Below are positions 12,081 through 24,927 of a stretch of DNA of 64,000 nucleotides, piece by piece (position 1 is the stretch's first letter; every line of letters begins with the position of its first letter). A program made the translations under genes and the position numbers. The notes beneath the pieces are model-generated. The model had not been told where the DNA came from, searched no databases, and saw only the letters and a list, made by a program, of their open reading frames with translations. Location: the NCBI RefSeq assembly GCF_032062105.1, contig NW_026930525.1, forward strand, positions 186,001 to 250,000, written 5' to 3'. This DNA comes from Saccostrea cucullata (taxonomy: Eukaryota).

Positions 12081-13748
12081 ATGGCAACACATGTTCTGAG
12101 CTGTCTTCTGCTTGCAGTATTTGTTCCTGCTAATGCCTTTTACCATGTAAGTTGTCCATCAATATTTTGATATTAAAATTAAATTAATATCATTGTTGCA
12201 TTGCATACATAATTATGTAAAATATGAGTTATATTGGTATTAAATGAAATACATGTACATCCTTTAATTTGTTCAATTTTGATTTTCTTCATTCTAGCAG
12301 TAAAAACAAGGCACGCAGAATGTAAAGTGCTTGTAAGAATAACTGTAATTCAAGGGCTCTTCATTTTGGCCGATACCAAATTTCATTCTGCATGAAAATA
12401 AAATTGATTTTTGATTTTTGTAGTCTCAGAGTTACTCCTGGGAAACGAATTTACCGAACGATCAGCTGGTCAATGAGTGTGCCCGATACTATCCATTGTT
12501 CAAGATAGCCCGCATTGCCTCCACCGATACCAGTCTGACTAACGCTGGCTATTTTACATCCCAAACTCAGTATGACATCAACAGGGTAAGATTATAGAAC
12601 TACTGTATTGTTTTAAACGTATTCAACAGATAAAAATAGCTCCACTTACCATGAATTTCTTTTTTTTTTCACAAATTAGTCCCCTCTTTATCCTCATTTG
12701 ATTTATTTAAAAAAAAAAAACATCTTAAGGTAAAAAAATATCTTTGTAATAGTCATTTAATTTGTATCACAGCGTACACTAATTTTCATGTAATATTAAA
12801 ACGAATGACAGGCAGTTTATATTTGCATGCTTATTATATATATGGATAACCATTAAGTAAAAATGCGCCAACACAAGTCTTGGATAAATTTTCAGAACAA
12901 AATGGCGATCCGATTCCACGTCCCCGTGGCAACCACGTCTACGCCGGTCTGCTTCGTTATGGACAGCAACGCCGTGGAAGAAGAGATCACTGGAGAGCTC
13001 ATCAACAGAGGCGACGTGAGTCTCCTGTAGATAAAATAAACTCTTAATCATTGGATTCTTATTAACTTTTGTTAAGACTTGTTTAGTTTTTAGCAGATAT
13101 ATTCTTTATATACATTCCACACAAATCAAACTATGAAATTTTATTGAAATGGAGGAAACGTTAATTAAAACTATAACTTGAGCAAAGATATAGGTCATTC
13201 TGATTAATATTAAACTGGTCTGATGCATATGTGTCGAAATTCTTAAATTACATTTAATATAGTCTAAAACATTTGTTACTATTTGTTGCGTAATGCCCAT
13301 GTATGATGAATATTCACTCTTGTCCAGATTATAACTTATCAAGATACATATGTAGCTCAGATATCAGTTGTAAATTTCAGGCTGGAGAAATTGAGACTGG
13401 GGAGGCCTTGACCCGCTTTGTTGAGGTGGCTGATAAACTGACCATTCACTCCTCCCTATCTAGTAATGGCTGGTTTACCACTGCTTTCTGTACTAAAGCC
13501 ATCAACAAGGGAAACGCTTACCTTATGAAAACCAGTGAGTATTAAAGAAATTATCTACATCTTTCTACTCTTTTTAAGAATTATTTTTAAAGATCACAAA
13601 ACATTTAAAACTGCTATTTTTTTCTTTAGGTTCTGTGGCCCAAGTGACCCAGTCATACAAGGTCAGTGGACAAATTGACCCATCTCAGCCAGAGCTTAAT
13701 GTGCCTTTCAACATCAATATCACTTCCGGAATCATATTCAACCCCTAA
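12081..13748 (+). CDS. Secreted BRICHOS-like domain protein A (about 206 aa, 5 coding exons)
   Basis: GT-AG exons 12081-12146, 12424-12585, 12896-13015, 13381-13534 and 13630-13748 splice in frame. Signal peptide MATHVLSCLLLAVFVPANA. BRICHOS-like pattern QYDINRNKMAIRF...VCFVMD...FTTAFC...AYLM. C-terminus QSYKVSGQIDPSQPELNVPFNINITSGIIFNP*. AATAAA at about 13897. Intron positions and phases match genes B and C. Confidence 0.8.
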
Positions 13749-14245
13749 AAAGGAACATTTCAAAAGAATGATGTTAAGAATAAGTAATTATACAAATATT
13801 TCTTGACAAAGCTTGAAACCGGTGACAACATATTTTGGATTTCATATGTGGAAGTGTGTTGTTTGTTTGTTTGTTTGGTTTTTTTTCTATTTTTGTAATA
13901 AATGATTGAAAACATTATCTTTTTATCATTTTCTTCATGGTGTTTGACCCTTTTTCATAATTTCTGGGATATTGTGGAGAAAGCATCTCTCATTTGCATG
14001 GAAAAGTGTACAGGGAGATGATAAATGGTAAATACAAACCCAGGTTCTTCTTCCTTAGAACCCCTGTGGCAAAAAGACGACGCATCTGTTAGAGAAATCA
14101 ATTAATCTTAAATACTTAGTACACTTAAGTTTCTACAAATCAATACCTCATGGAAAATTTTACAGCAGCGGAGATATATATGTAGTCTATCTAGAAACTT
14201 ATGATGTAGTTTGAATTTTGTTCAAATCACGTTTTTTAATCATTA

Positions 14246-14675
14246 AGGTAAGGTCACAATAGAGTATGTAACGTTGCAATTAAAATGTGACGTTGTTGCA
14301 TTGAGAATCCTCACTGAAATAGTGCAGCTTTTCGTGGAATTTGAATTCATAAAATTATTTCATAATTTCCAATTAAAATATAATTGATGTCTTGATTAAT
14401 TTATCGGTCAATTAATTTTGAAATGAAATTCAATTTTACGAAAGCAAGACTCAAAATTGTTGCAACTCTCTACTTTTCCACTGTAAAATTGATAAAAATC
14501 AAAGTTTTAATATCATTTCAAAATGAACATATCCATGAGTATTTAATACAAATTTCAAAATATCAAATGGCAAAAAATCTGCTGTTTTATATTATTGTTG
14601 CCTCTTCCTTAAAATGAGTTCAGACAAATTGTCGAAACGTCAAAAACAGAAATTTAAAGTAAACACAATTTCATG

Positions 14676-14721
<46 letters not shown>

Positions 14722-22296: not shown

Positions 22297-22304
22297 TATA
22301 TAAA
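22297..22304 (+). promoter_or_regulatory. TATA box of gene C
   Basis: TATATAAA at the same spacing to the ATG as in gene B. Confidence 0.65.
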
Positions 22305-22342
22305 GCTAATAGTTTTGAAGTTGATTAGTAAATTGAAGAAAA

Positions 22343-24927
22343 ATGAGGTACGCGTTCACTTTCACTGTTTTACTCCTTTCTGTGGGGTTTGCGGAGATCC
22401 ATGGGCGCCCGGGCCAGGGACGAGGAAGGCGGCCCGGGGGTAGGGGACGCGGTCGTCCCGGGGGTGACAGTAATGAAGACAGTAATGAAAGTGCAGATCG
22501 TCCCTCCACCAGAAATGTGAGTTAACATTGATTAGATATACGTATATAAACCCTGAAAAAGATTCGCAATAAATTATCATCGCGTGCATTTTCTTTGTCA
22601 AAGAAAGAATCAAACATTGTAGTTTTAATGAAAAGATATTTTTACTGTCTAAACTTATATGTGGGGTTCTTCATTCGCTCTTTCACCGAGAAAACAAACG
22701 TCGATTTTAAATTAAAAAACCCATTTATGATAAAACTGAGGAAAGAAGACTTTCAGATTTAAGCTTTACTAATTTCTCGATCACTTCTGTTGTAATTGTT
22801 TAAAACTAAGAGATAATATATGTGTAGCACTATAGATGATAATTTAAGAACTCTGAAAAAAATCCTGACAGGTCCAAAAATATTCCTGGATGACTGATCT
22901 GGATGAACAAAACACCAATGTCGCGGTGGATGTAGAGGAATTTGCACGTGTACATATGAACAAACAGATGGCCATACTGGTATCTCGAGACAGACAACTG
23001 AGCGATGCCGACTTTGACAATCACCTCACAATGTTTGATTTTGCAAAGGTACGTATTTGTTTATTCGTTTTTTAACAATAAGATGTACACAGAAAAAATA
23101 TACAAAAAATATCAAATCAAGTCGAGGATATTTAAGTATTGAATACATATTTGTAGATGTCGTCGAATGATCGACGACATCCAAAAATATGAAATCATTG
23201 CTTACATGTATATTTACATTTTCTATTTTCCTTCTTCATAATTGCTTATTTCGTTAATTATAAATGTGAATTTAGCGCCCTTTTATAATACCGCCGTAAC
23301 TAATCGACGTAGAGACGTTTGTGACGTTAAATGACGTTGCAAAGTTAAATAAAGCAAACATTGCGAGGAAAAAAGTGACAAAATAAATTTTAACGCACTT
23401 ATTTTACGTTAATTTAACAGGATTATAGTTTTTAATCAAATTGAGTCAAAACATTGTACATTTTGGTGTTCCTAGATTATAGAAAATACATATACATGTA
23501 GTTCCTACTGTGTATTCTACCACGCGGTGACAAAGTTTTGCGTGTGTTATAGAAATTTATAATGGGTTTCATACAGAAAATTACACTGGATGTAAATATT
23601 TAGTTTCCTCCTCTTTTTTTTTAGGGAAAATGTGGAATCCGTTTTAAGTTCCGAGTTCCCCCTGCCAGACCGATCTTACCAGGTGAATCAGCAGACGATC
23701 CAGCCGACGCCGATGACGAAGGTGTAGATGATATGTTGGAGTATGGTGATTTTACCGATAACGATTCCCCTGCAGGATTTTTCGGTGGCTCCGACCGAAT
23801 ATTCCGAGCCCGACCTGTTGAAGTCTGCTTTATAGGAGATAGTTTGGTTAACATGACGCAAGCTATGGATGAGTTTGACAGAAGGGAGCAGGTATATACT
23901 CAGTACTTGTATTTGGAAATATTTTCCTTTTAATCATTCAAAAAGGGAAAAAAAAGGTTTTAAAAAATGATCATAAAACTGGAATTCATAAGTTCTCTAT
24001 CAGTTTTATTCCTTAAAAAGAACCACGGCACTACTTAAGTAGGTAAAACTTTTTTTTTTGAAATATTACCATCCTTGAATCTGTTTTGCACCAAAGTAGT
24101 ATAGTTTTAAATACACAATTCTATGTTGGCATATCAATATATATATTTCTTACTTCGTAAAAATCTTTGAAAGTCAACAATTAGGCGCTTGTCCAAAATA
24201 TTTTTATGCATAGTATCATCATCAGTTTTATTAGAAAGGTTTAAAAAAAATTCTTTATAACATACAGATGGTTGAAATAGAGACTAGTGCAAGAGCAGCT
24301 TACAGTGTAGCAGCCGCTAACAAATTGACCTCTGACCAACTTGAGGCTATCAGTCCAGCCATCGCAAAATTCTGCAGCAGGGCTGCAAGGCTGGACAATG
24401 TATTCCAACTGACCGCCACAGGTATCGTGGGACCTCCCACATCCACCGTCCCCTCCCCGGCTTCTTCCACCATCGCCACCACCACCACCACCACCCAACC
24501 TACAACTACTGGCGGTGGAATTCTCCCCAACAGACCATTCCATCCAGGTATATAATGTTATCATTTTTTTTCGGTATGCATACTTTGAATGACCAATTTT
24601 TACCGACATGAAAATTTTACATACTCAGAAAAACGAATAAGTTGACAGAAAAGATTTCTTGAAACTGAAATAAAATTTCATGCGATTTGCTTAAAATAAC
24701 TTGTCATCTTCGAAATATAATTATAAGTGAAGAAATTTTCTCCTTGAAATTTTGTTAACAAGATTTATTCTTTTCCCCCCACTTTAGGGCTTATTGAAGT
24801 AATCCCTCCCGACTCTTTCCTTGCCTCTGGGTTCATGAATCTCGCCAACCCATCCTCGTCCATGCCCTTCCAGATCTCTATGGCTTCTGACGTAAAACTG
24901 AACATGCGGGGAGGGCGAAAAGGTTAA
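22343..24927 (+). CDS. Secreted BRICHOS-like domain protein C (about 345 aa, 5 exons), tandem duplicate of B
   Basis: Exons 22343-22516, 22872-23048, 23625-23891, 24268-24547 and 24788-24927 splice in frame with the same phases as B. Intact ORF ending SMASDVKLNMRGGRKG*. Confidence 0.85.
23130..23212. repeat. Palindromic element end in intron 2 of gene C, absent from gene B
   Basis: TAAGTATTGAATACATATTTGTAGATGTCGTCGA-ATGA-TCGACGACATCCAAAAATATGAAATCATTGCTTA hairpin. B/C intron similarity stops immediately before it. Confidence 0.6.

What the first reader, a model, noticed from the sequence alone, without database searches (positions are those of the whole stretch)
13630..24927. Conserved Cys-free C-terminal beta-hairpin on its own exon: candidate BRICHOS client (functional amyloid, matrix or antimicrobial peptide)
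Seen: the last exon of A (QSYKVSGQIDPSQPELNVPFNINITSGIIFN) aligns without gaps to B and C (DSFLASGFMNLANPSSSMPFQIS[L/M]ASDV[Q/K]LN). The pattern is S-aromatic-x-x-SG...P...PF-x-I-x-h-x-S-x-h-x-h-N with alternating hydrophobic residues. B and C end RGGRKG. Known: most BRICHOS precursors carry a C-terminal strand-turn-strand segment, usually disulfide-pinned. Inference: a disulfide-free client that could polymerise into beta-sheet fibres (shell matrix, cement, mucus) or act as a defence peptide. No clear convertase site precedes it, so release as a free peptide is unproven.
Basis: partly seen in the sequence, partly recalled or inferred. Interest (0 to 1): 0.75.

Follow-up and report, generated by a model that had tools for sequence, protein, structure and literature searches.

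The report
Oyster BRICHOS-like proteins with tethered hairpin
Three neighbouring oyster genes encode likely secreted proteins that share a cysteine-free tail predicted to fold as a two-stranded hairpin, which most likely stays packed on the protein's own probable BRICHOS chaperone domain, a known design rather than a new released fibre or antibiotic peptide.

Summary
Three tandem five-exon genes (A, B, C) of the oyster Saccostrea cucullata share a homologous Cys-free last exon: 9 of 31 identities A–B, matched by 1 of 5000 shuffles. It is under purifying selection between B and C, and AlphaFold folds A's copy as a beta-hairpin (pLDDT 84). BRICHOS identity is probable but unproven. The Asp, the Cys pair 57–58 apart, the intron phases 0,0,0,1 and ESM Atlas leads all fit, but Pfam gives no hit and the core could not be folded. 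Both headline features have precedents: the client sits on the last exon in alvinellacin, and Cys-free tails occur in BRICHOS group A and HfBRI-20/23. Against a defence peptide: hairpin charge is -1 to -2 and no dibasic site precedes it. Against a free amyloid: no conserved release site, an invariant Pro in strand 2, an N-glycan sequon in A, and conservation no higher than the core. Best reading: an amphipathic hairpin that stays docked on its own domain in a gastrokine-like secreted protein. More unusual are B/C's 50-residue acidic insert, Arg/Gly-rich N-terminus and Ser/Thr linker.

The parts
12081..13748 (+). Gene A, 206 aa: exons 12081-12146, 12424-12585, 12896-13015, 13381-13534, 13630-13748. 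Likely signal peptide, compact BRICHOS-like core (D73, C95, C153, extra C41), hairpin tail
   Evidence: homologous to B/C (profile E 2.4e-9 among 2001 sequences); not found in the protein collection with an exon-2 query
13630..13748 (+). Last exon of A: Cys-free beta-hairpin (predicted strands 2-14 and 23-35 of 38 residues); N-glycan sequon at N197 on the polar face
18726..20919 (+). Gene B, 356 aa (= XP_062566573.1): exons 18726-18899, 19189-19365, 19685-19954, 20238-20547, 20780-20919; D114, C186, C243, extra C244
18786..18848 (+). Arg/Gly-rich cationic N-terminal segment of B (residues 21-41: 8 Arg, 10 Gly, no acidic residue); C has 7 Arg and 10 Gly; absent from A
19685..19954 (+). Exon 3 of B, with an acidic insert of about 50 residues between the conserved Asp and the first domain Cys (14 D/E in residues 128-185; 15 in C); present in S. 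echinata, absent from A
20238..20547 (+). Exon 4 of B: second domain Cys, then a Ser/Thr-rich mucin-like linker (27 S/T in 40 residues)
20780..20919 (+). Last exon of B: Cys-free hairpin homolog plus RGGRKG tail
22343..24927 (+). Gene C, 345 aa (= XP_062566574.1): exons 22343-22516, 22872-23048, 23625-23891, 24268-24547, 24788-24927; D114, C185, C242, extra C120; recent tandem duplicate of B
24788..24927 (+). Last exon of C: Cys-free hairpin homolog plus RGGRKG tail; 3 nonsynonymous vs 6 synonymous differences from B
11995..12001 (+). TATA-like box upstream of A; the same 7-mer lies at 18680 (B) and 22297 (C), consistent with three separate promoters
   Evidence: motif match only

Best explanation
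The last exon of each of three tandem oyster genes encodes a cysteine-free segment predicted to fold as an amphipathic beta-hairpin, which likely stays attached and packs its hydrophobic face on the sheet of the protein's own probable BRICHOS domain, so that the likely secreted product is the whole gastrokine-like protein and not a free peptide. Shown: gene structure, homology of the tails, purifying selection, no Cys in the tail, near-neutral charge, no conserved dibasic or RxxR site between domain and hairpin. Predicted: the hairpin fold (A only). Inferred: BRICHOS identity (about 85%), docking on face A by analogy with Bri2-Bri23, secretion, and action in mucus or another surface secretion as a stable extracellular chaperone or barrier protein. 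On this reading the disulfide is dispensable because the hairpin never has to hold its shape alone. The invariant Pro in strand 2 and A's sequon on the polar face would keep the exposed side from stacking. B and C add a charged N-terminus, an acidic loop and an O-glycosylatable linker around the same core.
For: BRICHOS-like core: Asp then two Cys 58 (A) or 57 (B, C, S. echinata) residues apart, against D144, C160, C219 (59 apart) in ITM2A (PMC2751770). Intron phases are 0,0,0,1, like alvinellacin's 'all phase 0 except the last in phase 1' (PMC4002450). In ESM Atlas, clusters with BRICHOS (0.79), gastrokine-2 (0.78) and OAF (0.75) come up, and all ten best family-bearing hits share a family or clan (lead only). 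Hairpin: pLDDT 83.6. One face has mean hydropathy 2.2-2.7 and the other -0.3 to -1.6 in all four sequences. pN/pS is 0.16 B vs C (3 N, 6 S; Fisher p 0.007). No release site: the linkers hold only single basic residues; the one RxxR (C 244-247) is RAAK in B and S. echinata, and the last Arg precedes Pro. Precedent: C-terminal hairpins are modelled on face A in most human BRICHOS proteins and form part of the Bri2 proprotein core (PMC9714404, PMC11168071). GKN1 is a protease-resistant luminal protein (PMC8096951) and GKN1/2 run at about 19k in gastric extracts (PMC7177788).
Against: Pfam finds no BRICHOS match in full-length B, C or the S. echinata protein, nor in four single exons of A. PDB sequence searches found no BRICHOS chain. 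The Atlas scores are under 0.9, a level that shuffled proteins often reach, the top hit had no Pfam family, and residues 176-345 alone gave no usable hit. The domain fold was not obtained (pLDDT 31). Three of five hairpin models scored only 57-64, and the first strand of B/C has weak beta propensity by Chou-Fasman. The face positions were taken from A's model, so the contrast is partly circular for A. The 67-77 residue linker of B/C could be cut by a non-convertase protease. A docked client largely removes anti-amyloid activity in Bri2, so a gastrokine-like anti-biofilm role is not a given. There are no expression data.
Confidence: 0.55

Rival explanations
1. Chaperone-gated functional amyloid or matrix component: the domain escorts the hairpin through secretion, then a protease or a pH or ion shift frees it to stack into beta-sheet fibres in mucus, cement or shell; B/C's acidic loop and Arg/Gly segment would bind mineral or surfaces.
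For: The long amphipathic, uncharged hairpin has alternating Ile/Phe/Val. BRICHOS clients are generally aggregation-prone (PMC9714404). B/C carry low-complexity charged and Ser/Thr segments of the kind seen in matrix proteins (my knowledge). A long linker offers cleavage room. R-[IL]-F-R at the end of the acidic insert is kept in B, C and S. echinata.
Against: There is no conserved processing site before the hairpin. Pro is invariant inside strand 2, and A has a sequon in strand 2; that such features hinder cross-beta stacking is recalled, not tested. The tail is no more conserved than the core (Fisher p 0.45). Searches 'BRICHOS + shell matrix' (3 papers, all eggshell) and 'BRICHOS + mollus + mantle' (1 paper, digestive gland) gave no mollusc shell report.
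Confidence: 0.17
2. Precursor of a released antimicrobial beta-hairpin, as in annelid BRICHOS-AMPs.
For: Same exon layout as alvinellacin, and a tandem multigene family as there. Cys-free BRICHOS peptides exist. The genes sit next to three Reeler-domain genes, a family often annotated as defence proteins (recalled). The B/C tail fits the amidation pattern x-G-R-K.
Against: All 13 Heteromastus precursors have a Lys/Arg-Arg site before a tail enriched in positive residues. Here the 28-30-residue hairpin has 0-1 Lys/Arg and charge -1 to -2, with no dibasic site in the linker. The basic tail is absent from A. A review states that BRICHOS-AMPs are found only in polychaetes (PMC9756803).
Confidence: 0.06
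3. The proteins are not BRICHOS proteins. The hairpin is two ordinary strands of another secreted beta-rich fold, and the Asp/Cys/intron likeness is coincidence.
For: No Pfam or PDB match; sub-0.9 Atlas scores; no model of the core.
Against: Four independent features agree with BRICHOS: Cys spacing, upstream Asp, intron phases, and a terminal hairpin exon. Ten of ten Atlas family hits fall in one family or clan. Families share down to under 10% identity, and OAF was recognised only by structure.
Confidence: 0.12

Closest known systems
Gastrokines GKN1-3 (secreted BRICHOS proteins of stomach mucus)
   Same: Signal peptide, BRICHOS-type Asp and Cys pair, terminal beta-rich tail, clustered paralogs. 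A is of similar size (206 vs 183 aa for the Atlas gastrokine-2 cluster). [quoted passage not shown]
   Different: Gastrokine tails keep the Cys pair (conserved in all families but group A). There is no detectable sequence match, and orthology was not tested. B/C carry an acidic insert, an Arg/Gly N-terminus and a Ser/Thr linker.
BRICHOS group A / group I (insects, nematodes)
   Same: C-terminal region lacks the two cysteines in all sequences (PMC2751770).
   Different: Group A clusters with the ITM2 families and shares their positive tail charge, less pronounced; the C. elegans BRICHOS protein C09F5.1 is a type II membrane protein. The oyster proteins look secreted and their hairpin is neutral to acidic.
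Annelid BRICHOS-AMPs (alvinellacin, capitellacin, HfBRI-20/23)
   Same: Intron phases, peptide on the last exon, tandem duplication; HfBRI-20/23 are Cys-free probable hairpins.
   Different: They have a dibasic release site and cationic peptides; neither is present here.
Bri2 (ITM2B) with its Bri23 hairpin; OAF
   Same: Model for a C-terminal hairpin bound on face A and stabilising the domain. OAF is a precedent for a remote member found only by structure comparison.
   Different: They are furin-cleaved or predicted to be, with disulfide-pinned tails; Bri2 is membrane-anchored.

Membership tests
BRICHOS superfamily | N-terminal hydrophobic signal peptide or anchor | tested here: met
   Hydrophobic first 19-21 residues in A, B and C by inspection; no signal-peptide predictor was available
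BRICHOS superfamily | Two conserved Cys (strand 4 and helix 2) | tested here: met
   57-58 residues apart in 4 of 4 sequences vs 59 in ITM2A; the disulfide itself is not shown
BRICHOS superfamily | Conserved Asp before the first Cys | tested here: met
   D73 in A (22 before the Cys; 16 in ITM2A); aligned D114 in B/C, 71-72 before it because of the insert
BRICHOS superfamily | C-terminal region of high beta propensity forming a hairpin | tested here: met
   AlphaFold on A's last exon; prediction only, B/C not folded separately
BRICHOS superfamily | BRICHOS fold (central sheet flanked by two helices) | tested here: inconclusive
   Model of C failed, pLDDT 31 with a 4-row alignment; spliced A could not be folded; Atlas leads only
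Pfam BRICHOS PF04089 (as a sequence family) | HMM match | tested here: not met
   No match in B, C or the S. echinata protein or in A exons 2-5 scanned singly; whole A not scanned. Hence filed as BRICHOS-like, in none of the 14 named families
BRICHOS superfamily | Hairpin bound on face A; chaperone activity | not testable with these tools
   Needs a good model or an experiment
Annelid BRICHOS-AMP | Dibasic convertase site before the peptide | tested here: not met
   vs PMC10745061
Annelid BRICHOS-AMP | Cationic mature peptide | tested here: not met
   Hairpin charge -1, -2, -1, -1; whole last exon -1, 0, +1
Annelid BRICHOS-AMP | Introns in phase 0 except the last in phase 1, peptide on the last exon | tested here: met
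   (4 coding introns here, 5 in alvinellacin)
Gastrokines | Cys pair in the C-terminal region | tested here: not met
   No Cys in the last exon; conserved in gastrokines
Gastrokines | Gut-epithelium expression, luminal secretion | not testable with these tools
   No RNA run was listed

The most novel reading that the evidence does not exclude
B and C are BRICHOS proteins co-opted as oyster cement or shell-matrix precursors. A 50-residue acidic loop grafted into the chaperone sheet binds calcium or mineral and, nicked at the conserved R-[IL]-F-R motif, unlocks a tethered disulfide-free hairpin that polymerises: a chaperone-gated functional amyloid in a bivalve secretion.
Probability: 0.1. Interest if true: 0.75.

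Novelty: new member of a known kind. Interest (0 to 1): 0.3.

Why it matters
If BRICHOS identity is confirmed, this is a divergent bivalve branch that Pfam misses and RefSeq lists as uncharacterised. It offers a natural pair to test what a disulfide-free, uncleaved client does: compact A against decorated B/C. BRICHOS domains were reported at 83-104 residues, so a 50-residue acidic insert in B/C would be an unusual elaboration. The hairpin itself is the expected family architecture, so the finding as flagged is not surprising.

Tried and rejected
Whole genome: none held. RNA runs: no RNA holder listed; this is no evidence on expression. Homolog searches: A exon 2 against longer proteins gave 0 of 3 candidates. 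Full C gave only 3 Saccostrea proteins among 7141 candidates. An alignment query covered only 624-2000 aa and gave 0 of 8000, a poorly spent search. Metagenome contigs: 0 of 229 and 0 of 598 pattern matches confirmed; viral contigs 0 of 62. AlphaFold of whole C failed. Complex prediction of C core (57-262) with its tail (300-345): no verdict, score 0.00, alignments not used, controls not folded; it is not used as evidence. Foldseek with the 38-residue hairpin gave 0 matches at E <= 0.001. PDB sequence searches gave nothing relevant. One search was uninformative. My first splice model had wrong exon-2 donors in B and C, corrected. P0003 and P0008-P0011 were dropped because many of their differences look like C-to-T conversion. 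A natural BRICHOS-Reeler fusion (XP_061171657.1) was judged unlikely: the Reeler part keeps its own signal peptide, and the genes are separate here. Earlier-finding look-ups by place, words and sequence showed nothing on this family. Literature: 'Saccostrea + BRICHOS' 0 papers. 'BRICHOS + oyster' gave 11 papers, mostly reviews, seen as a listing; two were read as passages. The last search listed no paper containing 'gastrokine' among the 20 shown of 9,548. Subscription journals and supplements were not seen. The spliced protein A was never folded or scanned whole, which leaves the BRICHOS fold open.
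Full report
Setting. The window is oyster DNA. My spliced models of genes B and C equal RefSeq XP_062566573.1 and XP_062566574.1 of Saccostrea cucullata, both named 'uncharacterized protein LOC134228893'. Three paralogous five-exon genes lie in tandem on the + strand: A (12081-13748, 206 aa), B (18726-20919, 356 aa) and C (22343-24927, 345 aa). All 12 introns are GT-AG, in phases 0,0,0,1 in each gene. 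Each gene has a TATA-like box upstream and an AATAAA downstream. B and C are a recent duplicate: exons 91-94% and introns 78-85% identical. A profile of B, C and the S. echinata ortholog finds A at E 2.4e-9 against 2000 shuffles. No fourth paralog was found among 2177 reading-frame segments of the window. Gene A was not found in the protein collection (weak evidence) and rests on my model.

The observation. The last exons align without gaps: 9 of 31 identities between A and B or C. The local score was reached by 1 and 0 of 5000 shuffles. They contain no Cys, and B and C end RGGRKG. Between B and C the exon has 3 nonsynonymous and 6 synonymous differences (pN/pS 0.16, p 0.007). The S. echinata ortholog keeps 32 of 36 residues of B. 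The exon is no more conserved than the core: 26% vs 26-31% between A and B, and p 0.45 for N/S against the core. AlphaFold folds A's last exon, with a 4-row alignment, as a hairpin with strands 2-14 and 23-35. Mean pLDDT is 83.6; the five models scored 83.6, 83.0, 64.0, 58.6 and 57.0. In that register one face is hydrophobic in all four sequences (mean hydropathy 2.2-2.7) and the other polar (-0.3 to -1.6). For B and C the second strand shows beta periodicity, while the first has weak propensity.

Is the core BRICHOS? Probably, but it is not proven. For: an Asp followed by two Cys 57-58 residues apart in 4 of 4 sequences, against D144, C160, C219 in ITM2A (PMC2751770, parts 1-2 of 3 read). The intron phases match alvinellacin, whose introns are all phase 0 except the last in phase 1 (PMC4002450, passages). 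That vertebrate ITM2B and gastrokine genes also break just after the Asp and put the tail on the last exon is recalled and comes from no call. ESM Atlas returns BRICHOS, gastrokine-2 and OAF clusters at 0.75-0.79, with ten of ten family-bearing hits in one family or clan; these are leads only. Against: there is no Pfam match for B, C or the ortholog or for A's single exons, and no PDB match. A second Atlas query with residues 176-345 gave no usable hit, and the model of C failed (pLDDT 31). Families can share under 10% identity, and OAF was found only by structure (PMC10182729, passages; PMC9714404, parts 1-2 of 3), so a Pfam miss is not decisive. I put identity at about 85% and file the proteins as BRICHOS-like, in none of the named families.

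Are 'Cys-free' and 'own exon' new? No. The tail cysteines are absent from all group A sequences. Two Cys-free BRICHOS peptide families, one a probable salt-bridged hairpin, were described in Heteromastus (PMC10745061, passages). Alvinellacin's peptide is on the last exon (PMC5431198, passages). A terminal hairpin modelled on face A is the rule in human BRICHOS proteins, and in Bri2 it is part of the proprotein core (PMC11168071, passages).

How it most likely works. Nothing marks the hairpin for release. Between the second Cys and the hairpin A has three single Lys. B, C and the ortholog have single basic residues; the one RxxR (in C) is RAAK in the other two, and the last Arg precedes Pro. 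The hairpin carries charge -1 to -2 with 0-1 Lys/Arg, unlike annelid BRICHOS-AMPs, where all 13 Heteromastus precursors have a dibasic site and a tail enriched in positive residues. Strand 2 holds an invariant Pro, and A has a sequon at N197 on the polar face; by general knowledge both hinder cross-beta stacking. I therefore favour (0.55) a tethered client that buries its hydrophobic face on the domain, in a protein secreted whole like the gastrokines. GKN1 is protease-resistant and luminal (PMC8096951, passages), inhibits curli and biofilm (PMC12919244, abstract), and GKN1/2 run at about 19k (PMC7177788, passages). Docking, secretion and tissue are inferred. One caution: a bound client largely removes Bri2's anti-amyloid activity but not its activity against amorphous aggregation. 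Rivals are a released or unlocked functional amyloid in matrix or cement (0.17), a non-BRICHOS fold (0.12) and an antimicrobial peptide (0.06).

What is more unusual. B and C, not A, carry three additions. One is an Arg/Gly-rich N-terminus (7-8 Arg and 10 Gly in 21 residues). Another is an acidic insert that moves the first Cys 71-72 residues from the Asp instead of 22 (14-15 D/E); it is kept in S. echinata and ends in R-[IL]-F-R. The third is a Ser/Thr linker. Reported BRICHOS regions span 83-104 residues. Each mature protein has a third, unpaired Cys, at a different place in A, B and C. These features keep a matrix or cement role open (novel case, 0.1), but no expression or proteomic evidence was available. 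My searches found no report of BRICHOS proteins in mollusc shell or in Saccostrea. One mussel digestive-gland table lists a BRICHOS transcript (PMC4203926, passage). Other papers seen as passages: PMC9627735, PMC9756803, PMC5867881. No supplements were read.

Verdict. This is a real, selected, probably hairpin-forming tail in a divergent oyster BRICHOS-like family. It is a new member of a known kind, with the amyloid and antimicrobial readings unsupported. Interest 0.3.

Noticed in passing
window 18726-24927: RefSeq treats genes B and C as isoforms of one locus (LOC134228893). Isoform X3 is B exon 1 joined to C exons 2-5, either cross-paralog splicing or read mis-mapping.
   Followed up: partly
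P0013 (XP_061171657.1, S. echinata): The B/C ortholog is annotated fused to a Reeler protein that keeps its own signal peptide. This is probably a merged gene model, and it suggests the two gene types are neighbours in both species.
   Followed up: partly
window 29340-54100: Three tandem Reeler-domain genes (starting near 29350, 34668 and 51630), each ending in a hydrophobic tail that looks like a GPI signal.
   Followed up: partly
window 20941-21059 and 24944-25082: A 25-nt tandem repeat of about five copies lies just after the stop codon in both B and C.
   Followed up: no
window 20899-20916 and 24907-24924: The C-terminal tail of B and C fits the amidation pattern x-G-R-K (pattern recalled); absent from A.
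   Followed up: partly
genes A, B, C: Each mature protein has three Cys; the extra one is C41 in A, C244 in B and C120 in C, which could allow intermolecular disulfides.
   Followed up: partly
window 7797-9884 (-): Broken reverse-transcriptase element upstream of A (Pfam RVT_1, E 1e-13); looks like a non-LTR retrotransposon remnant.
   Followed up: no
window 36002-42661: Arrays of a 166-bp tandem repeat, the length of a known oyster satellite (recalled), inside an intron of the second Reeler gene.
   Followed up: no
window 16836-21478 vs 21480-25505: Duplication unit of B and C; about 1 kb upstream of B (17310-18308) has no aligned counterpart upstream of C.
   Followed up: no
P0003, P0008-P0011: Database proteins resembling exon 2 in which many differences from P0005 are T>I, A>V, R>C, H>Y, as expected from C-to-T converted reads; likely artefact entries.
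   Followed up: partly
window 62620-62871 (+): Exon that resembles the N-terminus of the splicing factor PUF60 (recalled; Pfam gave no significant match).
   Followed up: no
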